NCBI GenBank assembly: GCA_000092065.1
Contig: CP000584.1
Reading direction: 5' to 3' (one strand)
DNA length: 64,000 bases
Source: Ostreococcus lucimarinus
Taxonomy: Eukaryota
The position numbers and the translations under genes were made by a program. This document shows, piece after piece, positions 42,901 to 61,837 of this stretch (positions are counted from its first letter, which is position 1; each line of letters opens with the position of its first letter). A model generated the notes under the pieces. It was not told the DNA's origin. It made no database searches and saw only the letters and a list, made by a program, of their open reading frames with translations.

Positions 42901-44279
42901 TTCACCTTGGCCAAACAACGTTCGGGAAGCGAACCGTCTAGACGATACGCTGGATCTTCGAGCCAGTACACTGTCGCCGTGATATTTTCACTTAAGGACG
43001 CCGCTGTCACGCACTCGACACCATTCAATGCAAGTTTGGCGTGACCCATTTGCATCGACACGCAGTCGTCACGCAAGACTACACCGCACCTGTCATCGGC
43101 GCCAACCGAAGAAAGATGCAAAACCAACTCATGGTCGTCGTCGAACCCGTAAATACATCGCGCGTCACTCCAGCTCACATCTAATCGATCCGACAATTCA
43201 ATTCTAATCGCCGTCATCGTCAGTTTGCACACCACGTCGTCGAACGGCGCATCCATAGAAAACTGTGGACATTGAACGGTGAAGACCGTCGTTGCACTCG
43301 AAGGCTCCGCGGAAGAATCGATACCCAATGATTCCGACAACTCCCGTATTGCTACCTCTGCGTCGTCGAAGAACTCTTCGTTCAGCTCCTCGTTTGAGTC
43401 TTCGTAAACGCTGTCACCCATGCTCTCGCCCATGGCGTCGTTCGCTTCCTCATACGCGCTTGCGTACATGGCGGCCGACCCACTCGATAGCACATCGTCG
43501 ATGAATGAACGTCGCGGTCTCGACGTCGATGGCCGTTTTAGGCGAGCAGAAGATGCATTGGAACCAAATGCGTTCACGAGATCGACGAAATTCTTCACCG
43601 CGTGCACTGTAGCCGTCGTTTCGATGGTCTCCAACTCGACGTCGACGCGACTGAAATCACTTGGTATCTCTGCGTGCCCGGAAACGTCGCGCACCACGAC
43701 CTCGGACACCGAACATTCAACGCCAGTTGCGATTCGTCGCACAGACATCCCCGAGAAACTCACCCCTTGCCCGTGCGTATACTCTGCCGATTCGAGTCGC
43801 ACGAGAAACTTGCCCGCGCCCGCTGCGTCTTGCACCACTACGTTTACCCCTCTCAATCGCGCCTTGAGCCCACGACAGAGCGCATTCAACGCTTGCCGCA
43901 TGATCGCCGACCCTTGCGCGCGCGCGCCATCCTCTCTCTCGAGCGCGTCAAACACCTCCGCTTCGCCGCTCCCCGCGCTCGGTCGCGTCGTCACCGTCAC
44001 GTCCTCGAGCTCCAACGAGCACGACTCCCTCCCGATCGCCTCCCACGGAATCCGCCCCGTGACCGCCCCCACGCGCACCGCCACCAACTCCATACCCGTT
44101 CGCGCCTCAAAGTCGCCCGTCCACGCCGTGACGACGTTCGCGTCGAGCTCGACGTCCTCGAGTCTCGCCTCGCCCGCGCTCGCGTCCACTCTCGCTCGCC
44201 CGCGTTCGCCCTCACCGCCGCCGTCGCGCACCAACCGCGCGATCGCGCGTGATATGAAGTACTCGCATATTTTCCGCAT
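39984..44279 (-). CDS. ATG2: Autophagy-related protein 2 (ATG2; chorein-N lipid-transfer protein with an ATG2 C-terminal domain)
   Basis: ATG at 44277-44279 verified (MRKICEYFISRAIARLV..., chorein-N-like). The C-terminal region 'YFQKIEIDRLSLRLDYCGRQVDIDSLRSGNLLEALNLVPWDGVLLDIQPLRLTGIAGV' matches the ATG2/VPS13 ATG_C domain. The 1,431-aa size fits ATG2 rather than VPS13. No splice was needed, but internal introns cannot be excluded. Confidence 0.6.
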   Translation of the reverse strand: MRKICEYFISRAIARLVRDGGGEGERGRARVDASAGEARLEDVELDANVVTAWTGDFEARTGMELVAVRVGAVTGRIPWEAIGRESCSLELEDVTVTTRPSAGSGEAEVFDALEREDGARAQGSAIMRQALNALCRGLKARLRGVNVVVQDAAGAGKFLVRLESAEYTHGQGVSFSGMSVRRIATGVECSVSEVVVRDVSGHAEIPSDFSRVDVELETIETTATVHAVKNFVDLVNAFGSNASSARLKRPSTSRPRRSFIDDVLSSGSAAMYASAYEEANDAMGESMGDSVYEDSNEELNEEFFDDAEVAIRELSESLGIDSSAEPSSATTVFTVQCPQFSMDAPFDDVVCKLTMTAIRIELSDRLDVSWSDARCIYGFDDDHELVLHLSSVGADDRCGVVLRDDCVSMQMGHAKLALNGVECVTAASLSENITATVYWLEDPAYRLDGSLPERCLAKVKNRREANETDTCLREQLANDASLFVKLNVPIIETRLSIDVVESVSTIIQSMYELPDNHPMALRVATPDSVMTPLAFGIDVGALRMQLDAPLTDGTCSTSTDDDSVLVECELRRARVFAATNIAGVLGSDFVWTQFDSARVTTDNVETVFVECRSSDQGASKSSLAFARMEGEPACADVNVVGMSASLTQCEPLIRRLNTFAPARDVDADTNVCDSSTLCFSLSLFELVLIYKSNDSFALIQNDFLRISSKGVECSHDAGVSTSFGVEMYCNEISAFMVPPEIKATDGIRTLPAFPFTNSTICAARFAPVMNAKAISLITSSSSSKTAIATVSTRSCVVSLQRDILRALKRLFMSEVEGADRPASPASGDENEYVFVSPVKKARDISHARYSSSVTEHEIAAATRDHDEMFPRRLEGQKRGSTETSEAHHRSLLVRRDTNARVGPNIIENFFYRSNRRVRRKRKTVLLAAGSVTAVRKHSSSRARAGGVNASIMSRSRFAGEFVEARLPAMPPSLPRVGDHAHTRYLPLPKDVVVPQSTVHVNGETFDVHILPGLFWSESPTSLPRHADSVEVDPLGVSAGIKLSLKTNTVRVDSFPQREGETAHRIACAVRDAVCTDVTAGATWPNVLKYDVLSGERGDRSDMCSLDIMAVRPDAKTPSEVEYLFKASSIPIHVKLDQRVLKLALDVFADDSDDSSHVASPPREESIYFQKIEIDRLSLRLDYCGRQVDIDSLRSGNLLEALNLVPWDGVLLDIQPLRLTGIAGVVPVVQTAVNAWLDDITRTQAHKFVQSVKPIKSATNIGRRAAGLVSKPLEFHRNNRRGGVVAGFALGVASFVKEVSLSSIELGAFAAGQSAALLAAAEGMIVDAEREIEDVSSPTNVFHGLSLASKTAWRGARRATDALVVEPIRDYATGDVTSSAALLGAVRKVPYAAVTGAKGFTKAVDHALSGAVASFRPPSRDADASCDADDFP

Positions 44280-44552
44280 CCTCGCTCGCTCTCGCGCGCG
44301 CGCGTCCCCGCCGTCGCCGCGCCGACGAAATCCGAGGTGCCGAGTGACAGGTGCGTCGCGTTCGCGTCGCGCGTTTAAATTCTGCGCCTCGCCCGCGCGC
44401 GCGAGCTCGCGCGCGCGCCGCGAGCCTTCGCGCGCGACCGATCGACGCCTCGCGACGGCGTTCGCGCGCGCGCGCGCGTGTGGTGCCGCGGGTCGATGCG
44501 CGCTCGAATCGCACCGCACATCGCGACGCGTCGCTCGCGACCGATCGCGCGC

Positions 44553-44768
44553 ATGACGCGCACGGAGGTCACGCTCGCGGTCGACTTCGCGTGCGAAGGG
44601 TGCGCGGCGTCTGTGCGCAGGATCGCTGAGCGCATCGAGGGCGTGCGCGAGGTCGAGATCGACGTCGAGGCGAAGCGGTGCGTGGTGCGCGGGGACGCGT
44701 TGGACGCGGAGGACGTTCTCGCGCGCGTGCGCAAGTGTGGACGCGCGACGACGCTGCTGATGGAGTGA
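44553..44768 (+). CDS. ATX1: HMA-domain copper chaperone (ATX1-like)
   Basis: ATG at 44553 verified. 71 aa: 'MTRTEVTLAVDFACEGCAASVRRIAERIEGVREVEIDVEAKRCVVRGDALDAEDVLARVRKCGRATTLL', a ferredoxin-like HMA fold with a CxxC (CEGC) metal site. Confidence 0.6.
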   Translation: MTRTEVTLAVDFACEGCAASVRRIAERIEGVREVEIDVEAKRCVVRGDALDAEDVLARVRKCGRATTLLME

Positions 44769-44818
44769 CTTGCTCGTGTCCTGATGTTTTATTAGCGCGC
44801 GCGGGACGAATGGCACGA

Positions 44819-46234
44819 TCACGCGTCGTCGTCGTCGTCGCGCCGGCGGCCGCGGCGAACGGGCTTGGCGAACTTGGTCGCGACTTCGGGACCTTCGTCG
44901 TCGTCCTCGCCGTCGATGTCCCTGCCGTCGCAGACGTATAAAGCGACGAAAGTGCGACCGTAGCGCCGGTCGCGGACGCGGCGGAGACGCTTGCCGATGC
45001 TCGGGAGGATGTCACGCGCTTGGCCTTTGGCGTACTCGACGAGTAAAATGGTCGAGTCTTTGACCAGCGCCGACTCATCGAGCTGGAGGAGGAGCTCGGG
45101 ATACGATACTTTTTCGTACGGAGGGCAGAACGATATGAAATCGAACGCGCCGCCGACGCCTCGAGCGTTTTTGTGGTGCTGGTTCATGAAGGCTTGCACG
45201 CTTGCGGTGTGTGTCGTCGTTTGCTTGGTGAGACCGAGCGAATTCAGATTCTTGTTCGTGACGTTGTTCACCACCCAGGGGTCCATTTCGACGAAATGTG
45301 CCTCGACGACACCGCGCGATATCGACTCGATGCCGATCGCGCCAGTGCCGCAGAACATGTCCAACCATCTCGAGTCTGGCGGAAACTGCACGTTGCTTCG
45401 CGAACCGAGAAAGTTTAACATCATATCAAACGTCGCCCCACGCACCATGGACATCATCGGTCGCGTGTCTAAACCGCTCGGCGACAAAAGCTTTCTTCGT
45501 GCATACTTTCCAGCCACGATGGTCATGCGCTTGTGCGTTTTTCTCGTCGCCTCGTATTCCTTCTTCTTGTTAAACGTCGCCACCTCTTGTTTTTCCTCCT
45601 CGATTGCAAATAACAGATCCCTCGGTACCCCCATGCGCACCATGCGCTCGATGTCCTCCTTTTTCATCCCTTTATCATCCCTCTTTGCGTTTATCTCACT
45701 ACTTTCGCCCACCACGCGCTTCGGCTTCGCATCCGCCGCCGCGACGCCGCGCGGGTTCTTCTTCGGCGACTTTAACGACGTGTTCACCGCCTCCGAACTC
45801 CCACTCGCGCGATCGTTCTTCGTCGGCACGCGCACAAAGTCCATGACATATCCATTGCCACTGTCTTCGTCGTCGATGTTGAACAAATCTTCATTCGCCA
45901 CGCGCACGTTGGCGCCCTCCGGGACGAAGAACCAGTCGTCGTCCTCGTCGTCGTCCTCGTCGTCCCAGTCTTCATCGTCTTCGATCGCGATCGGGTCGTC
46001 GTCCTCCAAGTCTTCCTCGTTCCAAAACAATAAATCTTCCTCCGCGTCGGCCGCGCTGTCGTACTGTCCCTTGGCGCGCGTCGCGAGCGCGCGGCGCGGG
46101 AACGGAATCGACACGCGGTGGCGGCGGCGGCGGACGGGGACAGCGCGCGGTCGCGCGCACGACGTCGATGGCGGCGTCGCGACGCGAGAGCTCGACAGCA
46201 CGATTTGAGCGTGCGCGTGTGGCATCGCGCGCAT
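44819..46234 (-). CDS. RsmD-like rRNA (guanine-N2) methyltransferase with an acidic N-terminal region
   Basis: ATG at 46232-46234 verified. 'MTIVAGKYARRKLLSPSGLDTRPMMSMVRGATFDMMLNF...WLDMFCGTGAIGIESISRGV...AFDFISFCPPYEKV' carries the RsmD motifs (DPPY-like 'CPPY'). Confidence 0.65.
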   Translation of the reverse strand: MRAMPHAHAQIVLSSSRVATPPSTSCARPRAVPVRRRRHRVSIPFPRRALATRAKGQYDSAADAEEDLLFWNEEDLEDDDPIAIEDDEDWDDEDDDEDDDWFFVPEGANVRVANEDLFNIDDEDSGNGYVMDFVRVPTKNDRASGSSEAVNTSLKSPKKNPRGVAAADAKPKRVVGESSEINAKRDDKGMKKEDIERMVRMGVPRDLLFAIEEEKQEVATFNKKKEYEATRKTHKRMTIVAGKYARRKLLSPSGLDTRPMMSMVRGATFDMMLNFLGSRSNVQFPPDSRWLDMFCGTGAIGIESISRGVVEAHFVEMDPWVVNNVTNKNLNSLGLTKQTTTHTASVQAFMNQHHKNARGVGGAFDFISFCPPYEKVSYPELLLQLDESALVKDSTILLVEYAKGQARDILPSIGKRLRRVRDRRYGRTFVALYVCDGRDIDGEDDDEGPEVATKFAKPVRRGRRRDDDDDA

Positions 46235-46317: not shown

Positions 46318-48111
46318 TCAATTCGACGCGGTCCAGAACGTTTCCTCGTTTTCGGCGCCGTAACCGACGTAACGAGGTCGACGTTTACCCGCGGGAGTGA
46401 AGTGCTTGAGATAAAATGGAAGCCCGCCCTCGACTTCGACGACGTCGTCGAAGACTTCGGCGAGCGCGCGCAAGGCGTCCAAATGATACGCCTCGGAGGC
46501 TTCGGCGGCATGAAAGACGACGACTGGGGACGATTTGTCGGCGTATTTGCCATCAGCGTTGATGTTGTCTATCATCACGTCCACGGCTGGGTTGTCCACG
46601 GCGTCTGATAAGCCACCCGTGCGAATCGCCGCGGGCATGGACGTTGCTCCCTTGAGCGTCTCTCGATTGAAGTCTTTGACGGGACGAATGTCAAAGACAA
46701 CGGCGCCGCCTTCGATCAAGCGCTGCGCCTCGCCAATATTTTCGACGCGCCATGGCAGGGGCTCTTCATCTTCCTCTTCTACGATCATGACAGGTTCGGC
46801 GTTTTTGGCGTGTTCCTGCACCGCGATTCGCAACTTTGCCTTCGCGTCCTCTCGCATCTTTACCGCCTCGGCGTCGGGCTCTTTCAACAATTTATCACGT
46901 GCTTCATCGCGCGCGGCTTTCCTCGTAGCCGCGCGTCGAGCGGCGACGAGCTCTTCGGGCTCTTGCCAACGCATGTACTCTCGAGCGAGCTGAATATTAT
47001 TCACGTTTTCTTGCTCGCCAACGACGTTGCGTCCGCACGCCAACAGCCGCTCCAGCGTGATCGTCACGTCGCCTAATTTCAACCTCCGACGTTCATCTAA
47101 ACCGACGAGCGAGTCATTTAAACCATCTAAGCCGACGTTGAACACGAAATCACTGACGGCGTCATCATACACACGCGCGCGTAACGCGCCGAAGAAATCT
47201 AAAGGCTGATTCGGAAATGTCGCGACGAGCGTTTCGCAACACGCCGTCGTCAACCCGTCATCCTTCATCATAGCGTGTATCATCTCAACCAACTCTTGCG
47301 ACGTCGGCTCCCACATCCAAAGATCCATTCGACCGTCTCTCGTTAGAGGCGCATACAGTCGAGAAAAATCATTCCCCGTGACGATGATTGGCACGCGCGC
47401 GTTGGTAGATTTGGAGTCCGTCCTCCAAACCAGTCCCTCGCTCACGATCGTGGGATTGTCACAAATGTTCATCAACGTCCCGTGCGTGATTTGATTATTT
47501 ACAGTCCCCAGATCGTCCTTAAACTTACCGATCCCGGCGTCGATGTCGTTGATAATAAGACAACTCAACTTCCCCGTCTCTCTCATCGCTCGCGCGGCGG
47601 TCAGATACCTTCGCCGCAACATCGCCCCGGGCTCCCCCGCCGTCGAATCCTCCAACTCCCCCGCGCTCGTTACGATCGGCTGCAACCCCATTTTCTTACA
47701 CGCCAACTCCACGTTCATCGTTTTGCCGCAACCCTTGTGTCCCCAAATCCCCAAAATTAACGCCGGAGACGTCGCGCCGAGCGCCCCCTTATCCTTCAAC
47801 AAGTTCTTCACCACGTGCGTCGCCACGCGCTCGGCGAAGCGTTCCGGCACGTGAAACCCATCGAGCGCGGCGAACGTTCGAAACTCACGCTCGCGATGTT
47901 CGCCCGTCGCGACGTCCGCGTCGACGCCGAGAACGCTTCCTTTAAAGAGCTCTTCTTCGACACCGCTGCGTTGCGAGTAGATGAAATCTTGCCCGCCGAG
48001 CGCGTCCTCGCGCGCCGCGCGTCGCGTTCGACCGCGCGAGACGCGCCCCTGACGCGCCACGCGCGCACCGACGGGCGCGCGCGACGTCCGCGCGGGCCCG
48101 CGCGGCGCCAT
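46318..48111 (-). CDS. Rubisco-activase-like AAA+ ATPase fused to a C-terminal rhodanese-like domain that has no active-site Cys
   Basis: The track start at 48231 is GTG. The first ATG is M41 (cat at 48109-48111, verified; MAPRGPARTSRAPV...). The AAA+ module is clearly Rca-type ('GIWGHKGCGKT', 'LIINDIDAGIGKF', 'NQITHGTLMNICDNPT', 'VPIIVTGNDFSRLYAPLTRDGRMD'). A charged linker follows, then a roughly 130-aa rhodanese fold ('VVFDIRPVKDFNRETLKGATSMPAA...SPVVVFHAAEASEAYHLDALRALAEV...VEGGLPFY') in which the CxxGxR loop is replaced by FHAAEAS. Confidence 0.7.
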   Translation of the reverse strand: MAPRGPARTSRAPVGARVARQGRVSRGRTRRAAREDALGGQDFIYSQRSGVEEELFKGSVLGVDADVATGEHREREFRTFAALDGFHVPERFAERVATHVVKNLLKDKGALGATSPALILGIWGHKGCGKTMNVELACKKMGLQPIVTSAGELEDSTAGEPGAMLRRRYLTAARAMRETGKLSCLIINDIDAGIGKFKDDLGTVNNQITHGTLMNICDNPTIVSEGLVWRTDSKSTNARVPIIVTGNDFSRLYAPLTRDGRMDLWMWEPTSQELVEMIHAMMKDDGLTTACCETLVATFPNQPLDFFGALRARVYDDAVSDFVFNVGLDGLNDSLVGLDERRRLKLGDVTITLERLLACGRNVVGEQENVNNIQLAREYMRWQEPEELVAARRAATRKAARDEARDKLLKEPDAEAVKMREDAKAKLRIAVQEHAKNAEPVMIVEEEDEEPLPWRVENIGEAQRLIEGGAVVFDIRPVKDFNRETLKGATSMPAAIRTGGLSDAVDNPAVDVMIDNINADGKYADKSSPVVVFHAAEASEAYHLDALRALAEVFDDVVEVEGGLPFYLKHFTPAGKRRPRYVGYGAENEETFWTASN

Positions 48112-48423
48112 CGCGCGAAACACTGTCGCTTCGGGACAAAAGTGCGCGCGAGACGACGGGGACACGAGCCGCGGGCGTTCGCGCGCCGCACAACGCGACG
48201 ACGACGCGCGCGACGCGCGCGCGCGGCGCACACGGGTCGACGCGCGAACGGCACGAACGTTGGCGGCGCGCGAACGACGCGCGGGGCGAAGGCGACGCGA
48301 CGTGGGACGATTGATGCGCGACGGTTCGAGCCGTTACTGCCGACGCGCAAACAATCGTCGACGCGTGCTGACGAAAGGCGCGCGCGCGAAGGTGGAGGAG
48401 CGAACGAGGAGTGGATAGTGATC

Positions 48424-51400
48424 ATGGATGATAAGGTAGAACGGCGCGAGCGCACGGCGCGAGCGCTTCGCGAGGCGGAGTACGCGAAGGCGCAGCGAGG
48501 AAACTTTTTCGTGAGGAATCACGCGCGCGCCAAGCGGTATTGGTACGAGTTGAATCAAAACGATACCTCGTTGTACTTGTTCCCGCCCAGGAGTGGCGTG
48601 CGAAGGAACGCGCAACGATTGATTGCGTGGAAGTGGTTCGAGAGGGTGACGATCATGCTCATCGTGGCGAACTGCTTCACGCTCGCGTTGTACCGGCCGC
48701 TGGAGAAGCACGGACGAACGAATCAAAATTTAGAAGTCGCCGAAACGATCTTTACGGTGATGTTCACGTTGGAGTTTTTAGCGCGCGTGGTGGCGAATAA
48801 CTTTATATTCGGTCCGCCCGAATCGGACGTGTACTTGAGGGATGGATGGCGAGTTTTAGATTTCACCGTCGTCATCGGCGGTTGGGTCTCCGTCGGAGTT
48901 ATGGTCGCTGGTGGATCTGGAGGAGGTCTCACAGCTATTCGAGGTATTCGTGCACTGAGACCACTGCGATCGATTTCAGGGTTCCCTGGATTGCGCGTGT
49001 TCGTCTCGACGACATTTGCGTCGATGGGTATGGTTAGGGATGTCGTGTTTTTCCTCTTCGTCGTAATGATAGTCTTGGGTATCCTCGGCGTGCAGCGCTA
49101 CGCGGGTAAGCTGTCGAACAGATGCGCGTACGCAAGCACACTCGATCTCGTCATGGAACAAATCGAGTTTCCGTGCTCAAAATCTACCGGCGGTCGTTCT
49201 TGTGGACCCATGCAAGTGTGCATCGCTACTGCGTTGACGGGCATGGACGACGGTCATTCAACTTTCAACAACATCATGGGTGCGGGATTTATAATTTATA
49301 GAGTTTTGACATTGCGTGGGTGGACAGATTTGATGTATCAAGTCATAGACGCCACCGGTGATCGTGTTTTGGCGATAATTTACTTCATCATCATCGTCGC
49401 CGTCGGCGCAATTTTTGTTTCATCCTTTATGTTGGCGGCGGTGACGACAAAGTATCGACAGACGGCAATTTTAGACGAAAAAAGGGCGCTGGACGCCGAG
49501 ACGGAAGACAAATCGAAAGCGTTGAGCAATCCAAAAAGTAAGAGAGTGCTGGCGAGCAGGAGGGCGGGCCGATTTAGCTATGGAGAGCGCCTGGAGCGAA
49601 TGATGGAACGACCGTTGGCGTTCATGCGGCGGGAGTTCATCTACCAGCGTTGGCTGCAGATGTTTGTGAAGCACAAGTATTTCGAAAATGGTATAACTAG
49701 TGCGATTGTGGTAAATACAATCATACTGGCGGTGCACTTTCGTGGTATGGGGAGCGAGATGGAGACAGCTGTGAATAATCTGAATTACTTGCTTTTGTCA
49801 GTCTTCGTGTTCGAGTTGGTGATGAAAGTACTCGCATTCGGAATTTTAGGATATAGCAAGGATCGCTACAATTTGTTCGACGCGACTGTTGTCACTGCCG
49901 GTCTGATAGAGCTGGCATATCGTAACAGCAGCTTGGCCGTCGCACGCGCGTTCCGTCTGTTGCGAGTGATGCGCACGACTCGCCTCATCACAAGAAACAA
50001 GAACATGCGGCGTTTGATAGATACCACCATGGAGAGCTTCAGTGCTATTCTGAACTTTTGCGGTGTCCTATTCGTCTTTGTTTTCGTCTTCACGGTTTTA
50101 GGCATGCAGCTATTTGGTGGACGCGACGAGTTTTGGGATGCGCGGCCGAATTTCAACACCTTTGGGGATAGTTTTCTCTCTGTATTCGAGATTCTGACGG
50201 GATCGCATTGGTACAAGTTGATGCTCGTCGCCATGAGTGGCTCGTACGGCGCCCCTGCAGCCTTGTTTTTCATTTGCTGGTCCTTCATCGGTTCATTTGT
50301 GCTGTTGAATCTCATCGCGGCGATGCTCATTGACACATTTTCACGCACGATGCGAGCAAAGGAGCTCGAACTCGAGCGTTTGCGCGAGGAAAAGAAAGAG
50401 ACGGAACGCCGAGAGGCCGAGGCCAAACGTCAACGAGAAATCAATACTCTTCTCGAGGGAAACAATGATGATGAGATGGATAAGGTGGAAGTGCACCAGG
50501 AAGGCATAAGCACGGAGTTAACACGGTTGATGAAACCAAACGAGATTCGACGCCATCCGGATGCCAAGCGCATCGTGAATAGGATGAATACACGCAAACA
50601 GCGAGCATTTGCGAGAGAGGTGCAGCTGATAGAAAGGTGGCTGGAGATAATAGGTTTCACAGAAAATGATAGTGATGTTGACAGCGATAGTGAAGACAAC
50701 GCGGTGGATGCCAATGAACAGCTCGTCAAGGACCGAGCACTTTTAGTTGACGAGTTGGCGGTTGATGATGGCGTGCCAGAGAGCCAACTGACGACGCTCA
50801 TGCGAGAAAAGGCATCTAGAAAAGTATCCGCACTTGTCGCTACTGGTATCCCGATTCCCATGGATGATCGCCAGGTAAGGGCGGCCTATCGACGTTGGAG
50901 AATTGACGCGGCGGCGGAACAAGGCAGCGATAGCGACGAAGACATGAATATCCAGAACACAAACACACTACGGGATGAGTACGGCGGTACAGCGGACGGC
51001 ACGGCTGCCAGTGCAATGGAGGTCCGAAGACACTTGCAAGAACATGCGCTCGCTGAACTTCGACGCAGTCTGTTGGAGCGTAGCGGCGAGTCGGGTACTA
51101 AAGACGCGCTTCAATGGGCGTCGCAGGCGCCCACAATTGGCTTGGCGATGAAGAGCGCGGAGGCTCGGATGCGACCAGAAGAACAAACTGCGATCATCGC
51201 ACAACGTCGAGCGGAGGGCAACAAAAGTGGTCATCTCGGCAAATTCAAAGGAGACGGAATGAGCGCCGAAGGCGCTGCCGCAATCGCCGAGGCAAATTTG
51301 CTGAGCATGCGAATTCGCGAATCAGAGCGCTTGGAAGCTATAAAGAAGAAACGTGGCCAATCAGTCGACGAGGACGTGCCCGCGGCGTCCGACGACGTCG

Positions 51401-53838
51401 ACGCCAACGATGGACTAGCTCCATCACCTGTCAATCCGCCGACGGAGCGGAAGACGGCTTCTTGGCGCGCCAGGGTGAAATCTACGCAGCCTGGCGAAGA
51501 ACGCAAGTCGTTGTCGGAATCGCTGCGAGGTATGGCTGATAGACCAAGACCCGGTCCCGTGACAGAGTCTTTCAACGAAGATAACATATCTAGTGCGTCA
51601 CCGAGCAGAGATGGAGATACGATGTCAAATTCACACTCGGCACGAAGTCCCCGCAACTCGCGTTCACGCGGTTCGCAAACAACTGGAGATTCTGCGCACG
51701 CGTACAACACCCTCGTGCCCATCGTGGAGTATACGTCGATGCCACCCTTGCTGAACATAGACTACAGCCTCCCGAGGATATCCGAAGACGTACACGCCGG
51801 TAAAGCCAGGAAGGCGTTGGGATTACCCGTGCGTGACATCGTTGTTGATGAGACGAAAATTGACAAATCTTCAAAGAAGAACATCGCCGAAGAGGACTGG
51901 TTACGCAATGCCGGTGCGACAAAGGATGAGATTTGCATGATGTACCCGTCGTTGGGTTTCATCAAGCCGCGACGCCCGATGCGACGTTTGCTATTCATGC
52001 TTATCAAGCATCCCGCGTTTGAGGCGCTCATGCTCGTTCTCATCGTATTCTCGTGCATCCAGCTCGCGCTCGACGCGCCCACAGTGCATCCAGAAAGTGA
52101 TTTGGCCAGCGTTCTCAAAGCAGCGGACGTATCTTTCACGCTCATATTTTTGGGCGAGGCAATCATAAAAGTAATTGCGATGGGCTTCGTTATGCACCCA
52201 GGAGCATACCTTCGATCTCCTGCGAACTGCTTTGACTTTTTCATTGTCATCGTATCGCTCGCCGTCGAAACCATGAGCGCGTCAGCACTGAAGTCTATGC
52301 GCAGCTTCAGGTTATTTCGAGCTCTGCGTCCTTTGCGCCTGTTAAATCGAGTTAAGAGTATGCAAATCGTCGTTGCGACGCTGCTTCACGTCCTACCTGA
52401 TCTTGGGAGTGTGATGCTGTTGGGATTGTTTCAGTTTTTGATTTTCGCAATTCTGGGCTCGCAGTTATTTGCTGGTAAATTTGATTACTGCAACGACCCT
52501 ACGGTCTCTGGAATGCACGCGTGCGTCGGGACGTTCGTTGACGAGAAAGGTGCACACGTGACTCGCCGGTGGCTCAATCCGCCACTGAACTTCGATAACA
52601 CCCTGCTCGCTCTACTGAGTCTCTTCGTCATCGTCACACGTGACGGATGGCTTTCTGTAGCGTTTCAAGGCATGGACTCAACGGATACGGACTTGCAGCC
52701 ATCTTTAAACAACAGTGGCTGGACAGCTATTTATTTTTTGAGCTTTATTGTGATCCTCTCTTTCGTCTGGTTGAGTATGATCGTCGCCCTCGTGTGCGAG
52801 AGTTACAAGAAGGCTTGTGTGTTGAGCAACTCGACGCAGACGCTCAACGCCGAGCAGCAAGAGTGGGCGGAAGTTTTGCGTATGAAAAAACACGACGCCG
52901 AGCTCAAAATATTGGATGACGACACAACCGGGGCGCCACGGTTTTTCATTCGAAAATCGGCTTACTCCTTAGCCACGAACCCTCGATTTGAGGCTTTCAT
53001 CGTTGGCTGCATCATTGCCAACACTATCACCATGGCGTCGTATCACGACGGACAACCGAAAGCCTATGCCGAAATTCAACGAGCGGCGAATGTGTTTTTC
53101 TCTTGGATCTTCTTGTTAGAGCTCTCGTTGAAAATGGTCGCACTGTTCCCGAAACGTTACTTTTCAGAGCGCTGGAACGTGTTTGATTTCATCATCGTCG
53201 TGGCTAGTATTCCCGACCTCGCAGGTGTGGATTTCGCCGGTACCACGGTGCTCCGCGTCATCCGACTTGGACGCGCGCTACGTCTGTTTAAACAAGCGAA
53301 GGGTCTACGTACGGTTTTCAATACGCTATTGAGCTCCTTTGAAAGCGCGTTTAACGTCGTTTTCCTGATATTCATGTTGATGTTTGTGTACGCGGTGCTT
53401 GGCATGAATCTCTTCGGCGACTACGAAACCACGTATCCGAGTGGACGTGTGGAGAACTTTCGGAACTTTGGCGCATCGCTTATGGTTCTCTTGCGAGTCA
53501 TCACGCGTGATAATTGGAAGCGTATCATGTTCGACACGATGAAATGTGAATACAATGTGGACGGCGTCGCGGCGAATTGCAGTTACATCTTCGTCCCGGC
53601 GCTCTTCTTCACGAGCTTCATATTGTTGGGGGCGTACGTGTTGTTGAGCCTTATCATCGCCTCCATTTTGGACAAATTTACTGAAAACGCTGTGAACGAG
53701 GGCCTGCTTTCGACGGCGAATATATTCGTCACTGTCCGTCGAAAGTTGCTGCTTGACACGTTTTCCACCAAGCTCAAGATGAAGCTCGACTCGTTCAAAG
53801 TGAAGAAGCCCACGAGAGGGGCACGAAAGAAAAAGTAG
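48424..53838 (+). CDS. Four-domain (24-TM) voltage-gated cation channel, Cav/Nav superfamily, 1,804 aa
   Basis: ATG at 48424 verified. Four S1-S6 repeats, each with an Arg-every-third S4: DI 'IRGIRALRPLRSISGFPGLRV', DII 'FRLLRVMRTTRLITRNK', DIII 'MRSFRLFRALRPLRLLNRVKS', DIV 'LRVIRLGRALRLFKQAKGLR'. P-loops align unambiguously to Cav1 ('GWTDLMY', 'ILTGSHW', 'TRDGW', 'TRDNW'). The II-III linker is about 530 aa and coiled-coil rich. Everything in track ORF 47815.. before 48424 is antisense to the Rca-like gene. Confidence 0.85.
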   Translation: MDDKVERRERTARALREAEYAKAQRGNFFVRNHARAKRYWYELNQNDTSLYLFPPRSGVRRNAQRLIAWKWFERVTIMLIVANCFTLALYRPLEKHGRTNQNLEVAETIFTVMFTLEFLARVVANNFIFGPPESDVYLRDGWRVLDFTVVIGGWVSVGVMVAGGSGGGLTAIRGIRALRPLRSISGFPGLRVFVSTTFASMGMVRDVVFFLFVVMIVLGILGVQRYAGKLSNRCAYASTLDLVMEQIEFPCSKSTGGRSCGPMQVCIATALTGMDDGHSTFNNIMGAGFIIYRVLTLRGWTDLMYQVIDATGDRVLAIIYFIIIVAVGAIFVSSFMLAAVTTKYRQTAILDEKRALDAETEDKSKALSNPKSKRVLASRRAGRFSYGERLERMMERPLAFMRREFIYQRWLQMFVKHKYFENGITSAIVVNTIILAVHFRGMGSEMETAVNNLNYLLLSVFVFELVMKVLAFGILGYSKDRYNLFDATVVTAGLIELAYRNSSLAVARAFRLLRVMRTTRLITRNKNMRRLIDTTMESFSAILNFCGVLFVFVFVFTVLGMQLFGGRDEFWDARPNFNTFGDSFLSVFEILTGSHWYKLMLVAMSGSYGAPAALFFICWSFIGSFVLLNLIAAMLIDTFSRTMRAKELELERLREEKKETERREAEAKRQREINTLLEGNNDDEMDKVEVHQEGISTELTRLMKPNEIRRHPDAKRIVNRMNTRKQRAFAREVQLIERWLEIIGFTENDSDVDSDSEDNAVDANEQLVKDRALLVDELAVDDGVPESQLTTLMREKASRKVSALVATGIPIPMDDRQVRAAYRRWRIDAAAEQGSDSDEDMNIQNTNTLRDEYGGTADGTAASAMEVRRHLQEHALAELRRSLLERSGESGTKDALQWASQAPTIGLAMKSAEARMRPEEQTAIIAQRRAEGNKSGHLGKFKGDGMSAEGAAAIAEANLLSMRIRESERLEAIKKKRGQSVDEDVPAASDDVDANDGLAPSPVNPPTERKTASWRARVKSTQPGEERKSLSESLRGMADRPRPGPVTESFNEDNISSASPSRDGDTMSNSHSARSPRNSRSRGSQTTGDSAHAYNTLVPIVEYTSMPPLLNIDYSLPRISEDVHAGKARKALGLPVRDIVVDETKIDKSSKKNIAEEDWLRNAGATKDEICMMYPSLGFIKPRRPMRRLLFMLIKHPAFEALMLVLIVFSCIQLALDAPTVHPESDLASVLKAADVSFTLIFLGEAIIKVIAMGFVMHPGAYLRSPANCFDFFIVIVSLAVETMSASALKSMRSFRLFRALRPLRLLNRVKSMQIVVATLLHVLPDLGSVMLLGLFQFLIFAILGSQLFAGKFDYCNDPTVSGMHACVGTFVDEKGAHVTRRWLNPPLNFDNTLLALLSLFVIVTRDGWLSVAFQGMDSTDTDLQPSLNNSGWTAIYFLSFIVILSFVWLSMIVALVCESYKKACVLSNSTQTLNAEQQEWAEVLRMKKHDAELKILDDDTTGAPRFFIRKSAYSLATNPRFEAFIVGCIIANTITMASYHDGQPKAYAEIQRAANVFFSWIFLLELSLKMVALFPKRYFSERWNVFDFIIVVASIPDLAGVDFAGTTVLRVIRLGRALRLFKQAKGLRTVFNTLLSSFESAFNVVFLIFMLMFVYAVLGMNLFGDYETTYPSGRVENFRNFGASLMVLLRVITRDNWKRIMFDTMKCEYNVDGVAANCSYIFVPALFFTSFILLGAYVLLSLIIASILDKFTENAVNEGLLSTANIFVTVRRKLLLDTFSTKLKMKLDSFKVKKPTRGARKKK

Positions 53839-54035: not shown

Positions 54036-55346
54036 TTATTTTTCAGTCTTTTCTTTCTGCTCGGATGTTTCATTCTCAGTCTTGATGGCTTTTATCTTTG
54101 CCGACGTTGTCGCCGTTACGGAAGTGTTTGCGGCGGGCGCCACCGAGCCAAAGCCGTATGGATTTTGCATCGCTCCTTGGAACTGTTGCATTTGAATGAA
54201 GTGCGCCGCCATCTGCTGGTTAAACATCTGTTGCTGAATCGCTTGGAAAACTGCCGGATTTGAATGATCTTGCTGATCTGTGAATTGCGCCCACGGATTC
54301 TGGAACAGCGATGAGTACTGCATCGCCGACATCACGTTTCCAGAGCCGGGCGCCCGAGCGGCCGGGGCGTACGTAGTCGTCGCCGCGGTGGCAGCTGTAG
54401 GATAAGAAGGCGTCGGATGCGATAAACAGTCTGTTTTAAGCGCAGCCTCAGAGATGGGCGTGGCTGGTGCGACGTGCGCGCCGCTCAGCGCAGGTTGTGG
54501 TAGGGACGCCGAATTCTGCATGCCGCCAAATGGGAACATGCTCTTGTTCCAAAACTGCATCCCCCAGCGCGAGGCGGCTGACATTATGGCTGCCGAAGCC
54601 GCCGCAGCGGCCGCAGCTTGAGCTTGGGCGTGCTTGTCGCTCGTCGACAACATACCCGCGTTCACGTATCCCGCGACGGTCGGGTCGATGCCCCACCCTG
54701 AGACGTTGTAGCCCATCGCGGCGGTGTCGCCTACGGGCGCTTGTTGCGACCCTTCCGCGCTCCCTTGCTCATCGGTGGGCGATCGGTCGCGCAGCGCGGT
54801 GTCTGAACCAGCGTTCGACCCGTTGGTGTTCCATCCCGAGGGCTGTCGTCCGCCGTAACCCGAGTTCATGCCTTCGCCTTGCTCGGCTTCGGTGGCGCTT
54901 CCGTCTGAGGAACCGTCGCGCTTGGTTCGCGCCGTCTTGCTCCGATTTCTGTTCGAGCCCTTCTCAGCGGGCGTCGCCGGCGTGCATCTCGCCCGCTTAC
55001 CGCCAACATGTTGATCATCGTTGCCCTGCGCAACCGCGAATCGCCCCCGTACATCCTTGAGCGAATTCTTCTTTCTCCGTCCCGCGCCCACGCGCACGTT
55101 GCGCAACGACCCGCCTTCGGTCCAATACCTGCAACACTTCTTACAGTAGAACCTCGGCTGCTTGATGTTGTAATTGTTATAGTAACAAAACTTCGTATCG
55201 TCGCTCTTACACCGCGGGCACGCCACCGCGTAATCCGGCTTCGGCAAAGGTTCGCGCTTCTTCTCGTCGCCGCCGACCTCCGTCTTCGCGCGCGCACGCT
55301 TCCCCGCGTTCGCCGCATCACCGTCCCCGCTCGCGCGCGCGTTCAT
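54036..55346 (-). CDS. DOF: Dof-type zinc-finger transcription factor
   Basis: The track start is TTG. The first ATG is at 55344-55346 (verified). The C2C2 Dof domain '[45 protein letters not shown]' is a textbook match. It is followed by a long low-complexity Q/A/S-rich region, and the gene's 3' third has lower GC. Confidence 0.8.
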
Positions 55347-56020
55347 CGTCGGCACCCCCGCATTTCGTTGCGACTGCAACCTCTGTTCTTTCGCCGCGTT
55401 CGCCTCCGCCGCTTGTCGCCGCACCTCGCGCGCCTTGGCGTTCGAAGTCGCCCGCGCCCGCGCGTTATCCGACGCGCGCAATTCCGACGCTGGAATCGCG
55501 GCGAATATCGCATCCTACGTCGTCGAAAAGCCCCGATCGCGCGCGCAGTTCCGTCAGTCATTTACGTTCGCACCATTTCGCGCCGTCATCGCTCGCATAG
55601 CTCGTCGCGGCTTCGCGCGTCGTCGCGACTTCGCGCGTCATCGCGACGTCGCATCGCTTCATCTCGCACCAATCCCGTCGCCGCGCGCGGTTCTGCCTTC
55701 GCGCGATCGTCACCGCCGTCGTCGCGCACGACCGCGACGGAAATCCCCTCGCTCGCCGCGCGCGCGGGGGGGGTCCGCATCGCGTCGCGTCGTCGTCTCG
55801 CGCGCGGCACGCGTCGCGTCGCGGTCGCCGCGGATTGATTGTCGTTCGCGGCGCCCGGTGCCGACGCGGGGGGGCGCTCGATGGCGAGTCACGACTCGAG
55901 CGCGACCCTCGACCGATCGCTTTTTCTCTTTCGGCGATTTTTTCAACCGACGACGTCGACGGGCGTTTGGAGCCGCGCGAAGTGGATAAGATTGAAGATT
56001 TTTATTTTCGCGTGGGCGCG

Positions 56021-59000
56021 CTAGGCGAAGGGGGACGACGCGGCGACGCGCGGACGCGGGGAACCGTCGGCGCGGGCGTCGGACGGTTTGAGCGACGACG
56101 CTTCGAGGCGCTCGATTTTCGATGCCGCGGATTTTAAACCGTCGAGCGCGGCGACGAGGGCGGATTCGTCGGCGTTGGCGGGGGACGACGTCAAGTCGTC
56201 GCACGACAACGCGTCGCACTGGTCTCGAAGACTGGCGGTGACGTCGAAACCGAGCGCGGCTTGGTCGACGGCGCGCGGGAAGACCGCGAGGAAGTCACAC
56301 GCGGCGCGCGCGGCTCGATAGAGGGCCACGGCGACGGCTTCGGAGTACGCATTGCCAGTCTTTCGCGTCGAGGCGTCGGCGATGGGCGAGCCGTGCGGCG
56401 CCGTACCGATGAGCGGCGACGTGGGTTCGCGCACGGAGTCACCTCTCGCGGTGGCTTGGAACCATGCCTGAGTGGCACGCGTCGCCGGTGGTTTTGCCGC
56501 CAACGTTTCATCGGCTCGCGTCTTTCGAGGACATCGCAAGCCCCCGACAACCTGAGGCGCGGCGAACCATCGAAGAAAGCTCACGCACGCCACGCGACAG
56601 CGCATCTGGCCTTCGGGCGAAGAAACTTGCCACTGCGCACCGAAAGTGGACGCGAGACGGCTGAAGAACAACGCCGTCACTTCGACTTCCTTGAGCGTCG
56701 CGAGTGTGATCTCTTTTGGCGCCAAAGCGGCGAGCATTCGAGCTTCCAACGCCGCGCAAAAGCGAACGAGATCAGCCCCGACGTCTACAGAGTGCACGGC
56801 GAGCGGCGATCCCGCGAGCATGGCGGTGACGCGCAGAGCGGAGCAATATATATCGTGATTTGTCGTGTTGTGACGTTCGGCCTTGTTTGACTCGACGCAC
56901 AAGATGGCGAGAAGACGGACGGTGTCCGACGCGAGTAAAATCTCCGCTCCTTGATCGCTCTTGGAAAGGCTCAGGCACGTGTTTAGAGCGGCGATGGTCA
57001 CACTGTCGACGTCGTCGTCGCCTGTCGCCGGCCGGAGCGCCGGCATTATCTTGTAGGTACTGAGCACTTGAAGCAGCGCCGACGTCGGAAGCAGGTCGCT
57101 GGCGATGTCTGCGAGCAACATGAGCGCCACGCTCGATGTCGTCGAAGCCTTAGCGTTATTCGTTCCAGAGTCCCCTGCAGCAGCTTGGCAAATGAGAGGT
57201 ATGAGAGGCAACGCGGACTGGCCAAGCTCATAACTCGGCTGCACTGTCTTAGCAGATTGCATTCCGGCGCGCCACGCTCGGATGGCGAACAGCATGGCGG
57301 TGAGCAATGGGTTCACGAGAGACGCCGCTTCTCGCGATGGCGATCCCGAAGCGCTTGTTCGAGGAGCCAAAACCGTCGACACAACCAATATCACGCGCTG
57401 CACCGGTTCGAAATCGTTCTCCGCTGGTGTCTGAGGTGACGCACTGGATACTGAAACGCTCCACAACTGTGTCACGACGGACAACAACGTGGCCATTTCA
57501 TTCGCCAACGGGCTGACGTAGGAAGGCATGCTCGCTGAATCCGTCACGATGATCTTCTGCAAACGCTCAGCGACGTTCAATACGAGATCTCTTCGACTAT
57601 CTCTCGAAAGCCCATCGAGGAGAGTTTTCGGCGCACCTGTCGTCGTTGAGGCAGGTTGCGTGAACACCCCGGCGTGCATCTTCGGCAACTCACCAAAGGC
57701 GGCAGCGGCGATGAAGGAGCTCAACGAACAGATAGCGGACGACTGCGCGTCTGTGATCGACGACAGTAGGCACGTCTCGGCGAGCTGAGCGCTCATCGCA
57801 CGCCCCATGTCTGCTAGGGCTCCTTCGGGTGCGCCCCACTGATCGTCCGCGTTCGAACCCACACATCCCGTAGCGACGCGAATCCAATAGGAGTCGTACA
57901 AATACGATTCACCGTACTCAGCAGTACCAGCGACGCTGAGAGGAGCCGGAGCGAACGCCACGGCCTCGACGTGCATATCGCGGGCCGCCTGCACGAGTCT
58001 ATGCACCGCATCGGCTGACATAATAGAGCTCGGGCTTTGTGTAGCCGCCTCTCGAGCGACGGCTTCTAGAATTGCGACATTCGACGCCCCAGACGCTCTC
58101 AAATCTTTCGCCGACGCGTGCGAGAGCAAAGCGTCTCTGATTTTTCCACACATCCACTGTAATGTCGCGTCTGCCATCAACGGCGAGCGCTTCGCACTCA
58201 TATCTTCGCGCTCAAGAACCGATATGCATTGCAGAACGAACGCTTGCGCGGCGAATTGCGTCTTTTGGCGCGACAAAGCGCAACTCTCGTGCGAGAGACA
58301 CGTATCAATCCATGAACTGATGCGTGAGTTCGCGCACCATTCTCGTACCTGCGCGTTAAACGTCGCGCTCGACGTCCCGTCGAGAGCATTCATAGACGAC
58401 TCCGCTTCGATGGCGAATAGCGAAAGCACAGAACTAGCCGCGCTCAAGCTATGCGCCACCGCCGGTGGAGTAACTTCCTTCTCCGGTTGATCCACGCACG
58501 TCGCCAGTCTTTTCCACAACTCGACGTCCTTGACCTTGAGTGTCTGAATAGACTCGATGAGAAGTGGCTGGCGGCGCCAGAGAGCATCGAGCATGCGCAA
58601 AAGTGCCGCCAGGCAACGGGGCGACTGCGAGCGTATCTTTGTGGTGTCCTCGAGGATGTCCCACACTAAAGCCAACGCTCCTTCAACAGTCTTTTTCGTC
58701 TTTGTCGGGAGCGGCGGCGTCGGTGGTGGTTGCGTCGTAGGCGTCGTAGGTGCGAGAGCATTTGTCGGCGTCGTAGGTGCGGCAAGTGCGCCGGAAGCAG
58801 TCGGAGCTGGTAATGAAGCGGGGCGCTCTTCTTCGGGCTCTTTTTCGGGCACGAGTAAGGTGGCGACCCATTCCGGCTGATTTGCGATACCTGCGCTGAG
58901 TAAATCTGCGATGTCACACACGGCGTCCAAATCAGCGTGCTTGAACATGTGCTGCATCGAGCTCAGAATCTCCGCTCGATCTTGTCTGTCTAGCGTTGCA

Positions 59001-61786: not shown

Positions 61787-61818
<32 letters not shown>

Positions 61819-61837
61819 CGCCGAACGCGAACGACAT
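56021..61837 (-). CDS. Very large (1,938 aa) alpha-solenoid protein with an Ala/Pro-rich N-terminus; function unassigned (scaffold-type, possibly a nucleoporin of the NUP188/NUP205 size class)
   Basis: A continuous minus-strand ORF. The first ATG is at 61835-61837 (MSFAFGAPAPAPAPAP...), verified. The predicted fold is helical-repeat throughout, and I do not recognise a family signature. The N-terminal 'APAPAP' is encoded by a (GCGGGC)n repeat at about 61795-61830. Confidence 0.4.

What the first reader, a model, noticed from the sequence alone, without database searches (positions are those of the whole stretch)
48424..53838. Four-domain voltage-gated channel with a non-canonical R/S/D/D selectivity-filter ring
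The four P-loops align gap-free to Cav1 around the invariant GW / W positions. DI reads 'VLTLRGWTD' against 'CITMEGWTD'. DII reads 'ILTGSHW' against 'ILTGEDW'. DIII reads 'VTRDGW' against 'STFEGW'. DIV reads 'ITRDNW' against 'ATGEAW'. The residues at the canonical filter positions are therefore Arg, Ser, Asp, Asp, not EEEE (Ca), DEKA (Na) or EEKE/EKEE (NALCN). A basic residue in the DI filter position, with intact Arg-rich S4 segments in all four domains, is unusual. It suggests altered ion selectivity or a sensor role. The gene also has markedly lower GC (about 52%) than its neighbours and a 530-aa II-III linker.
Basis: partly seen in the sequence, partly recalled or inferred. Interest (0 to 1): 0.6.

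Follow-up and report, generated by a model that had tools for sequence, protein, structure and literature searches.

The report
Algal voltage-gated channel with arginine pore
This is an intact, strongly conserved voltage-gated ion channel gene of the tiny marine green alga Ostreococcus in which two of the four acidic pore residues are replaced by arginine and serine; this oddity was already noted for its relatives in a 2018 survey, but its function has never been tested.

Summary
Window 48424-53838 (+) is one uninterrupted 1804-codon gene for a four-domain, 24-helix voltage-gated channel. Three independent alignments place R298, S594, D1407 and D1696 at the selectivity-filter positions. No acidic residue lies within three positions of the DI or DII sites, so a register shift cannot rescue a canonical ring.

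It is not a pseudogene. Fifteen orthologue clusters (58-65% identity, same gene neighbours) keep R/[S or A]/D/D. Synonymous sites are saturated while non-synonymous change stays low. The P-loops are the most conserved parts of the protein.

A deeper green-algal clade also keeps Arg in DI (100% bootstrap). Its sisters carry Q/A/D/D, Q/S/D/D and E/S/D/D.

New here:
- The four P-loops carry a net charge of +3, against -4 to -11 in 187 of 205 homologues.
- Three of the four S6 asparagines are serines.
- The ring has the same cyclic pattern (basic, small, acidic, acidic) as the sodium-channel DEKA ring, rotated by two domains.

Best guess, untested: a voltage-gated monovalent-cation channel that excludes Ca2+.

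Arginine-bearing filters in Ostreococcus and Micromonas channels were published in 2018 (PMC5824947). This is therefore a new member of a described but uncharacterised clade. The low GC comes from composition, not foreign origin.

The parts
48424..53838 (+). Complete single-exon gene, 1804 aa plus stop: a four-domain voltage-gated channel
48619..49458 (+). Domain I (S1-S6, residues 66-345). The S4 carries R173, R176, R179 and R182
49315..49317 (+). Codon CGT = R298, the DI filter position. It aligns with E354 of Cav3.1
49669..50358 (+). Domain II (residues 416-645). The S4 carries R508, R511, R514, R517 and R520
50203..50208 (+). Codons TCG CAT = S594 (DII filter position, aligns with E923 of Cav3.1) and H595 (the n+1 position, variable among orthologues)
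50188..50190 (+). E589, at DII n-5 on the P1 helix. It is Glu throughout the x/S/D/D clade, where other channels nearly always have Gln
50359..51978 (+). II-III linker, about 540 aa. It has conserved short motifs, no known domain, predicted helices in the first half and disorder in the second half
51991..52809 (+). Domain III (residues 1190-1462). The S4 carries R1293 to R1305
52639..52644 (+). Codons CGT GAC = R1406 (n-1) and D1407 (DIII filter position)
52969..53688 (+). Domain IV (residues 1516-1755). The S4 carries R1611, R1614, R1617, R1620, K1623 and K1626
53506..53511 (+). Codons CGT GAT = R1695 (n-1) and D1696 (DIV filter position)
53689..53835 (+). Short C-terminal tail of 49 aa, with no EF-hand, GPHH or IQ domain

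Best explanation
The gene encodes a functional four-domain voltage-gated channel of a green-algal clade. That clade includes O. tauri CEF97603.1 and Micromonas-type relatives. In it, the Cav3-like acidic ring has become R/S/D/D.

Shown:
- The four voltage sensors are intact.
- The P-loops are the most constrained parts of the protein.
- The Arg in DI is fixed across a deep clade.

Inferred:
- The channel opens on depolarisation like its relatives.
- One fixed positive charge plus only two acidic residues in the ring (net -1, as in DEKA), set in an unusually basic vestibule, prevents high-affinity Ca2+ binding.
- The channel therefore passes monovalent cations (Na+ and/or K+) and excludes Ca2+.
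- Going round the domains, the ring reads basic, small neutral, acidic, acidic (R-S-D-D from DI). This is the same cyclic order as K-A-D-E in sodium channels read from DIII, that is, DEKA rotated by two domains.

The closest experimental precedent is Nav1.4 K1237R (DERA). That mutant still conducts, does not discriminate Na+ from K+ (PK/PNa 0.90) and still excludes Ca2+.
For: Identity and integrity:
- Four Ion_trans repeats.
- E about 1e-167 to solved Cav3.1, Cav3.2 and Cav3.3, then Cav1/2, Nav and NALCN.
- S4 charges intact in all four domains.

Filter: R/S/D/D by three alignments, with the control families read correctly.

Selection:
- 15 orthologue clusters keep R/[S or A]/D/D.
- The Arg codon varies synonymously (CGT, CGC, CGA). 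pS is 0.75-0.79, which is saturated, against pN of 0.18-0.29.
- The invariant fraction is 0.48-0.62 in the P-loops against 0.36-0.46 in the S1-S4 sensors.
- The neighbouring genes are the same in orthologous loci: a RuBisCO-activase/rhodanese gene upstream and a Dof gene downstream.
- An orthologue is transcribed in O. mediterraneus (MMETSP transcript).

Depth of the clade:
- R in DI in every member of a clade with 100% bootstrap, including proteins only 35-40% identical to the query.

Electrostatics: P-loop net charge is +3 in the query. In 187 of 205 homologues it is -4 to -11.

Precedent: the DERA mutant data are quoted in PMC3457692 and PMC2219431.
Against: - No electrophysiology exists for any member of the clade.
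- The DEKA analogy assumes that the four domains are interchangeable, which real pseudo-tetramers are not.
- Arg is not Lys, and the DERA mutant loses Na+/K+ discrimination.
- Some relatives have Asp in DII (R/D/D/D; P0210 and the Micromonas-like P0407).
- One Ostreococcus-type lineage has Glu at n+1 in DII and DIV, which brings the net charge to -1. Selectivity may therefore differ within the clade.
- I had no atomic coordinates, so the orientation of the R298 side chain is unknown.
- Ser replaces the conserved S6 Asn in DI, DIII and DIV. This could mean that gating is also atypical.
Confidence: 0.45

Rival explanations
1. The channel is still Ca2+-permeable. R298 is salt-bridged to a neighbouring Asp or turned away from the lumen. 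The remaining D/D pair plus backbone carbonyls give a low-affinity, T-type-like Ca2+ pathway.
For: - The best-matching solved family is Cav3, which shares the D/D in DIII and DIV and a basic residue at n-1 in DIII.
- NCBI annotates the O. tauri orthologue as a T-type alpha-1G calcium channel.
- Some relatives have a third acidic residue (R/D/D/D).
Against: - Only two acidic ring residues remain.
- The n+1 Asp of DII, present in Cav channels, is His here.
- The P-loops are net +3 against about -5 to -6 in Ca2+ and Na+ channels.
- In Nav1.4, a single Arg in the ring is enough to abolish Ca2+ conductance.
- The clade does not group with metazoan Cav3 in any of 100 bootstrap replicates.
Confidence: 0.2
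2. The protein is a non-conducting voltage sensor. Arg plugs or electrostatically closes the pore, and the protein transduces voltage to a partner through its long conserved II-III linker, as Cav1.1 does in skeletal muscle.
For: - The voltage sensors are intact.
- The II-III linker is about 540 aa and has about 100 positions invariant across 10 sequences.
- The vestibule is basic.
- Three S6 Asn residues are replaced.
Against: - The P-loops and S5/S6 are at least as conserved as the voltage sensors. That is not expected if permeation were dispensable.
- The linker is the least conserved large region. No domain is detected in it, and its model is low-confidence (mean pLDDT 52.9).
- The DERA mutant shows that Arg in the ring does not block conduction.
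Confidence: 0.1
3. The pore has inverted electrostatics and conducts anions, or some unusual species such as protons.
For: The net formal charge of +3 over the four P-loops is an extreme outlier among 205 homologues.
Against: - No tetrameric P-loop channel is known to me to be anion-selective (background knowledge).
- Filter carbonyls and pore-helix dipoles favour cations.
- D1407 and D1696 are invariant.
- One orthologue lineage is net -1.
Confidence: 0.05
4. The gene is a decaying or recently transferred copy, and the odd filter and low GC reflect relaxed constraint or foreign origin.
For: Gene GC is 51.7% against about 60% for its neighbours.
Against: - The 5.4-kb ORF is intact here and in all orthologues. 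pN is far below the saturated pS, and the filter codons are conserved through synonymous changes.
- Synteny is conserved.
- Three orthologous loci show the same GC dip. It is explained by GC2 of 0.41 and a modestly lower GC3.
Confidence: 0.01

Closest known systems
Prasinophyte four-domain channel clade 'WSC XXIX' of Pozdnyakov et al. 2018 (Sci Rep 8:3539, PMC5824947). It contains O. tauri CEF97603.1 / XP_003078817.1 and Micromonas XP_003060664.1 and XP_002504950.1.
   Same: - The window protein is the orthologue of O. tauri CEF97603.1. The P0004/P0386 cluster is 62-63% identical to it, and the paper's Table S2 S4 strings match that cluster.
- The paper reports Arg- or His-containing filters in these four sequences and calls their selectivity unpredictable.
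   Different: - This is a different Ostreococcus species. It is neither O. tauri nor O. mediterraneus.
- DII is Ser here and Ala in O. tauri.
- The paper's O. lucimarinus set has no S4 pattern like this gene.
- In the passages of the paper I read, I did not find the P-loop charge inversion, the S6 Asn-to-Ser changes, the DEKA-like cyclic pattern or the Q/A/D/D and E/S/D/D sister lineages.
Metazoan T-type calcium channels (Cav3.1-3.3; EEDD filter; PDB 6kzo, 6kzp, 9ayg, 7wli)
   Same: - They are the best-scoring solved relatives (E about 1e-167 to 1e-155).
- They share Asp in DIII and DIV and a basic residue at n-1 in DIII.
- Like Cav3, the window protein has no GPHH or IQ domain.
   Different: - DI and DII are Arg and Ser instead of Glu and Glu.
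- DII n+1 is His instead of Asp.
- The clade does not group with metazoan Cav3 in NJ trees (0 of 100 replicates).
- The S6 Asn is lost in three domains.
Voltage-gated sodium channel DEKA ring and the Nav1.4 K1237R (DERA) mutant
   Same: - The ring has one basic, two acidic and one small neutral residue, net -1.
- The cyclic order is the same: basic, small, acidic, acidic (read directly from the sequence).
- DERA conducts monovalent cations and excludes Ca2+.
   Different: - The pattern is rotated by two domains: the basic residue sits in DI, not DIII.
- The residue is Arg in nature here, not an engineered mutation.
- There is no IFM motif in the III-IV linker.
- The clade is phylogenetically separate from Nav.
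NALCN (EEKE or EKEE filter)
   Same: A four-domain channel with a basic residue in the ring. It is also a hit among solved structures (E about 1e-58).
   Different: By the paper's account, NALCN has Arg/Lys-poor S4 segments and is voltage-insensitive. Here all four S4 segments are charge-rich. The basic residue is Lys in DII or DIII in NALCN, against Arg in DI here.
Canonical EEEE channels of green algae and other protists (for example Chloropicon primus P0432, and the metagenomic P0016-P0018, which carry a GPHH domain)
   Same: The same four-domain architecture. After the orthologues, they are the next-best hits in the protein database.
   Different: They keep E/E/E/E, the n+1 Asp of DII, the S6 asparagines and a C-terminal GPHH domain.

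Membership tests
[quoted passage not shown] | Four tandem six-helix Ion_trans repeats in one polypeptide | tested here: met
   Pfam PF00520 matches four stretches, E=2e-194. Full-length matches to solved Cav and Nav chains.
[quoted passage not shown] | S4 segments with Arg or Lys at every third position | tested here: met
   There are 4-6 regularly spaced charges in each of the four S4 segments.
[quoted passage not shown] | P-loop signature T-x-[filter]-x-W in each domain | tested here: met
   The four loops read TLRGW, TGSHW, TRDGW and TRDNW. They align without gaps to the controls.
[quoted passage not shown] | Conserved Asn in each S6 | tested here: not met
   Only DII keeps it (N629). DI, DIII and DIV have Ser (S334, S1451, S1742). 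This is a conserved feature rather than a strict membership criterion.
Cav3 / T-type (LVA) calcium channels | EEDD selectivity filter | tested here: not met
   The ring is R/S/D/D. Only the DIII and DIV Asp residues are shared.
Cav3 / T-type (LVA) calcium channels | Phylogenetic grouping with metazoan Cav3 | tested here: not met
   NJ with 100 bootstraps gives 0 of 100 replicates for the clade plus metazoan Cav3. NJ on a fast alignment is a weak test of deep nodes.
Cav3 / T-type (LVA) calcium channels | Gating-brake helix-loop-helix in the I-II linker | not tested
   The I-II linker is only about 70 aa and poorly conserved. No specific test was run.
Cav1/Cav2 (HVA) calcium channels | EEEE filter, a C-terminal GPHH / EF-hand / IQ module and an AID in the I-II linker | tested here: not met
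   The filter is R/S/D/D. Pfam finds no PF16905 or PF08763, and the C-terminal tail is only 49 aa. The AID was not tested specifically.
Nav1 sodium channels | DEKA filter with Lys in DIII, and an IFM inactivation motif in the III-IV linker | tested here: not met
   DIII is Asp, the basic residue is an Arg in DI, and there is no IFM in residues 1463-1515.
NALCN | EEKE or EKEE filter and charge-poor S4 segments | tested here: not met
   The filter is R/S/D/D and all four S4 segments are charge-rich.
Prasinophyte Arg/His-filter clade (WSC XXIX, PMC5824947) | Orthology with O. tauri CEF97603.1 and the Micromonas members | tested here: met
   - The O. tauri cluster (P0004/P0386) is 62-63% identical to the query over its full length.
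- The S4 strings from the paper's Table S2 match that cluster.
- P0407 carries the S4 string of Micromonas sequence Microp3.
- The clade has 100% bootstrap support.
Prasinophyte Arg/His-filter clade (WSC XXIX, PMC5824947) | A positively charged Arg or His in the selectivity filter | tested here: met
   R298 sits at the DI filter position and is invariant in all clade members examined.

The most novel reading that the evidence does not exclude
The R/S/D/D ring, set in a net-positive vestibule, is an independently evolved, domain-rotated counterpart of the animal DEKA sodium filter. That would give marine green picoalgae their own Ca2+-excluding voltage-gated Na+/monovalent channel. More radically, the electrostatically inverted pore conducts anions, or it does not conduct at all and the protein works as a pure voltage sensor.
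Probability: 0.3. Interest if true: 0.8.

Novelty: new member of a known kind. Interest (0 to 1): 0.45.

Why it matters
Replacing an acidic filter residue with a basic one is how animals turned calcium channels into sodium channels. This is known to have happened independently in bilaterians (DEKA) and cnidarians (DKEA).

A deep green-algal clade has fixed an arginine in domain I, with the same cyclic charge pattern as DEKA. It would be another natural experiment on how four-domain pores choose ions. It would also be a first handle on membrane excitability in Ostreococcus, the smallest free-living eukaryote, which has no flagellum for such a channel to control.

The clade offers ready-made natural variants for electrophysiology: E/S/D/D, Q/S/D/D, Q/A/D/D, R/S/D/D, R/A/D/D and R/D/D/D. 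The claim is tempered in two ways. The sequence oddity was reported in 2018, and nothing functional is known.

Tried and rejected
- One-residue register shift: rejected. DI reads V-L-T-L-R-G-W-T-D and DII reads E-I-L-T-G-S-H-W-Y-K. The T and W anchors sit at the canonical spacing, and no acidic residue lies within three positions.
- Pseudogene: rejected.
- Foreign origin as the cause of the low GC: rejected. The same dip occurs in three orthologous loci, with GC2 0.41 and GC3 0.61.
- Membership of Cav3: rejected on the filter and on the tree.
- Known domain in the II-III linker: none. Pfam at E up to 10 gave only sub-threshold OmpA and DUF5371 noise.
- AlphaFold2 on the linker, using the 9 orthologue sequences as its alignment: mean pLDDT 52.9 and pTM 0.22, helices followed by disorder. 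The model was not good enough for a fold search, so none was run.
- Profile search of the protein database with an 11-sequence clade alignment: it returned essentially the same candidates as the first search and missed known clade members. It gave no new information.
- MAFFT --auto on 71 full-length channels: it timed out. I reran it with the fast progressive mode.
- Naming the species of the window: not achieved. The exact protein occurs only in metagenome and unnamed assemblies.
- Residue numbering for D1463 of Cav3.1: it used a row that I retyped myself. I do not rely on it.
- Literature check on the Cav3.1 n-1 Lys (K1462): only drug-binding papers came up.
Full report
WHAT IS THERE

Window 48424-53838 (+) is a single uninterrupted reading frame of 1804 codons ending in TAG. 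The frame stays open upstream to 47815. The first ATG, however, matches the N-termini of the orthologues, and the upstream part overlaps the neighbouring gene on the other strand.

Pfam finds four Ion_trans repeats (E=2e-194) and nothing else of note. Against the sequences of solved structures, the best matches are the human T-type calcium channels Cav3.1, Cav3.2 and Cav3.3 (E about 1e-167 to 1e-155). Next come Cav1/Cav2, then Nav channels (about 1e-123), then NALCN (about 1e-58).

THE FILTER

I assigned the filter residues in three independent ways.

- The phmmer alignment to Cav3.1 pairs query ...YRVLTLRGWTDLMY... with ...FQVITLEGWVDIMY.... It pairs ...VFEILTGSHWYKLM... with ...VFQILTQEDWNKVL.... 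R298 therefore sits on E354 and S594 on E923 (6kzo numbering), with no gaps between the conserved T and W.
- I built per-domain profile HMMs from the orthologues and aligned them to 94 database homologues. They read the known families correctly: insect and vertebrate Cav3 as E/E/D/D, Cav and protist channels as E/E/E/E, Nav1 as D/E/K/A and Nav2 as D/E/E/A. They read the query as R/S/D/D. A further 150 representatives from an exhaustive search gave the same picture.
- A global MAFFT alignment of 71 full-length channels gives the same columns.

The nearest acidic residues to the DI and DII sites are D302 (n+4, also present in Cav channels) and E589 (n-5). The one-residue shift that would refute the finding is therefore impossible.

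The four S4 segments are intact:
- DI: R173, R176, R179, R182
- DII: R508, R511, R514, R517, R520
- DIII: R1293, R1296, R1299, R1302, R1305
- DIV: R1611, R1614, R1617, R1620, K1623, K1626

NOT A PSEUDOGENE, AND NOT A ONE-OFF

The protein database holds an identical protein from marine metagenomes (a cluster of 253 members). It also holds 14 further clusters at 58-65% identity, all about 1790-1810 aa long.

- One of these clusters is Ostreococcus mediterraneus, represented by complete MMETSP transcripts, so the gene is expressed there.
- Another is O. tauri CEF97603.1 / OUS49469.1. NCBI names it 'Voltage-dependent channel, four helix bundle domain' and 'calcium channel, voltage-dependent, T type, alpha 1G subunit'.
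- All clusters read R/S/D/D, except the O. tauri cluster, which reads R/A/D/D.
- Three orthologous loci keep the same neighbours: a RuBisCO-activase-like AAA/rhodanese gene upstream and a Dof zinc-finger gene downstream.
- In codon alignments, synonymous sites are saturated (pS 0.75-0.79) while pN is 0.18-0.29. The Arg is encoded by CGT, CGC or CGA and the Ser by TCG or TCA.
- Across 12 orthologues the four P-loops are the most conserved segments (48-62% invariant columns). The S1-S4 sensors have 36-46% and the II-III linker 17%.

A DEEPER CLADE

I ran an exhaustive HMMER search with domains I-II against 1.84 billion representatives, and one further word-index search seeded with a distant relative. 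These turned up proteins only 35-40% identical to the query that also have Arg in DI:
- R/S/D/D: P0241, P0406, P0408, P0409
- R/D/D/D: P0210, P0407

P0407 carries the exact DIV S4 string that the 2018 paper lists for Micromonas pusilla XP_003060664.1. P0210 carries the DIII S4 string of the paper's Micromonas RCC299 entry, XP_002504950.1.

Their sister lineages are:
- Q/A/D/D: Pycnococcus provasolii (P0410) and P0209
- Q/S/D/D: P0218
- E/S/D/D: the trebouxiophyte [Myrmecia] bisecta (P0221)

In neighbour-joining trees on about 1100 well-aligned columns:
- The Ostreococcus-type group, the whole Arg-in-DI group and the whole x/S/D/D group each have 100% bootstrap support.
- The group never joins metazoan Cav3 (0 of 100 replicates).

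E to Q to R is a path of single-nucleotide steps. That ordering is my inference from the tree.

Nearly all members of the wider group (all but P0218) also have Glu instead of the usual Gln at DII n-5.

WHAT IS NEW BEYOND THE RING

1. P-loop charge. I summed formal charges over n-2 to n+5 of the four P-loops.
   - The query is +3 (R298, K598, R1406, R1695, K1699 and R1700 against D302, D1407 and D1696; His not counted).
   - 187 of 205 homologues lie between -4 and -11, with a mode of -5 to -6.
   - The Ostreococcus-type proteins range from -1 to +3.
2. S6 asparagines. The Asn conserved in every S6 of canonical channels is kept only in DII (N629). It is Ser in DI, DIII and DIV.
3. Cyclic pattern. 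Read round the pore, R(I)-S(II)-D(III)-D(IV) has the same cyclic pattern as K(III)-A(IV)-D(I)-E(II) of sodium channels: basic, small neutral, acidic, acidic. This is read directly from the sequence.
4. Variable n+1 position. The DII n+1 residue varies among orthologues (H, R, N, S, E). One lineage has Glu at n+1 in both DII and DIV.

HOW IT MOST LIKELY WORKS

Shown: a constrained pore and four charge-rich voltage sensors.

Inferred: a depolarisation-activated channel whose ring (net -1) and basic vestibule cannot bind Ca2+ with high affinity. It would therefore pass monovalent cations and exclude Ca2+.

The best experimental precedent is rat Nav1.4 K1237R (DERA). It conducts, has PK/PNa = 0.90 and shows no Ca2+ current (Favre et al. 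1996, as quoted in PMC3457692 and PMC2219431).

The rivals are a residual Ca2+ channel, a non-conducting voltage sensor that uses the long II-III linker, or an anion or otherwise exotic pore. None can be excluded without recordings. I give the monovalent-cation reading about 0.45.

THE OTHER REMARKS IN THE FINDING

- GC content.
   - The 51.7% GC is real, against 59.5% and 60.9% for the two neighbours and 60.2% for the window.
   - It follows from a membrane-protein composition (GC2 0.41) and a somewhat lower GC3 (0.61 against 0.69-0.70).
   - Three orthologous loci show the same dip.
- II-III linker.
   - It is about 540 aa, 42-55% identical between orthologues, with about 100 invariant positions.
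   - It has no Pfam domain.
   - Its AlphaFold2 model is low-confidence (mean pLDDT 52.9, pTM 0.22), with helices in the first half and disorder in the second.
- C-terminus. It is only 49 aa and lacks the GPHH/IQ module.

WHAT IS ALREADY KNOWN

Pozdnyakov, Matantseva and Skarlato (Sci Rep 2018, PMC5824947) surveyed four-domain channels across eukaryotes.

- They state that positively charged filter residues are rare.
- They state that four Micromonas and Ostreococcus sequences (their clade WSC XXIX) have filters containing Arg or His.
- They say the selectivity of such filters cannot be predicted.
- Their O. tauri entries CEF97603.1 and XP_003078817.1 have S4 strings that match the O. tauri orthologue cluster found here.
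- Their three O. lucimarinus entries do not include this gene.

My two literature searches for algal channels of this kind turned up no functional study of any member.

VERDICT

The finding is accurate and the interpretation sound. It rediscovers a published sequence feature in a new orthologue. The added observations (charge inversion, loss of the S6 Asn, the DEKA-like cyclic order, and a graded series of natural variants) make it a reasonable target for electrophysiology. They do not make it a new kind of system.

Noticed in passing
window 46318-48231 (-): The upstream neighbour fuses a RuBisCO-activase-like AAA+ module (PF00004, PF21228) to a C-terminal rhodanese domain. The same gene sits upstream of the channel in orthologous locus L001.
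   Followed up: partly
window 54036-55481 (-): The downstream neighbour is a Dof zinc-finger protein (PF02701, E=2.5e-28). It is syntenic in L002, L003, L004 and L005.
   Followed up: partly
window 56021-62089 (-): A 2022-aa ORF with no Pfam match at E<=0.001. L004 has a comparably large gene without domains in the same position after Dof.
   Followed up: no
window 39984-46234 (-): An ATG2-like protein (PF13329, 1612 aa) followed by a Cons_hypoth95 methyltransferase-like protein (471 aa). L001 has the same order, so synteny with the orthologous locus extends at least 8 kb upstream.
   Followed up: partly
window 47808-48455 (-), 49866-50426 (-), 51231-51758 (-), 51762-52274 (-): Long antisense ORFs of 170-215 aa overlap the channel gene and its upstream region. 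They are probably by-products of the high GC content rather than genes.
   Followed up: no
P0007-P0014 (orthologue lineage; locus L001 8001-13376): One Ostreococcus-type lineage has Glu at the n+1 position of both DII (TGSEW) and DIV (TRDEW). This moves the P-loop net charge from +3 to -1, a possible lineage-specific retuning of the pore.
   Followed up: partly
window 50188-50190 (E589) and relatives P0209, P0210, P0221, P0241, P0406-P0411: Glu replaces the near-universal Gln at DII n-5 on the P1 helix in nearly the whole x/S/D/D clade (P0218 and P0407 are exceptions). The change coincides with the loss of the DII filter Glu. It might be a relocated acidic partner for a neighbouring Arg.
   Followed up: no
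window 49930-50013 (DII S4): The DII S4 of this clade is three residues longer than in Cav and Nav channels and carries extra basic residues (R520, R524, K526, R529, R530).
   Followed up: no
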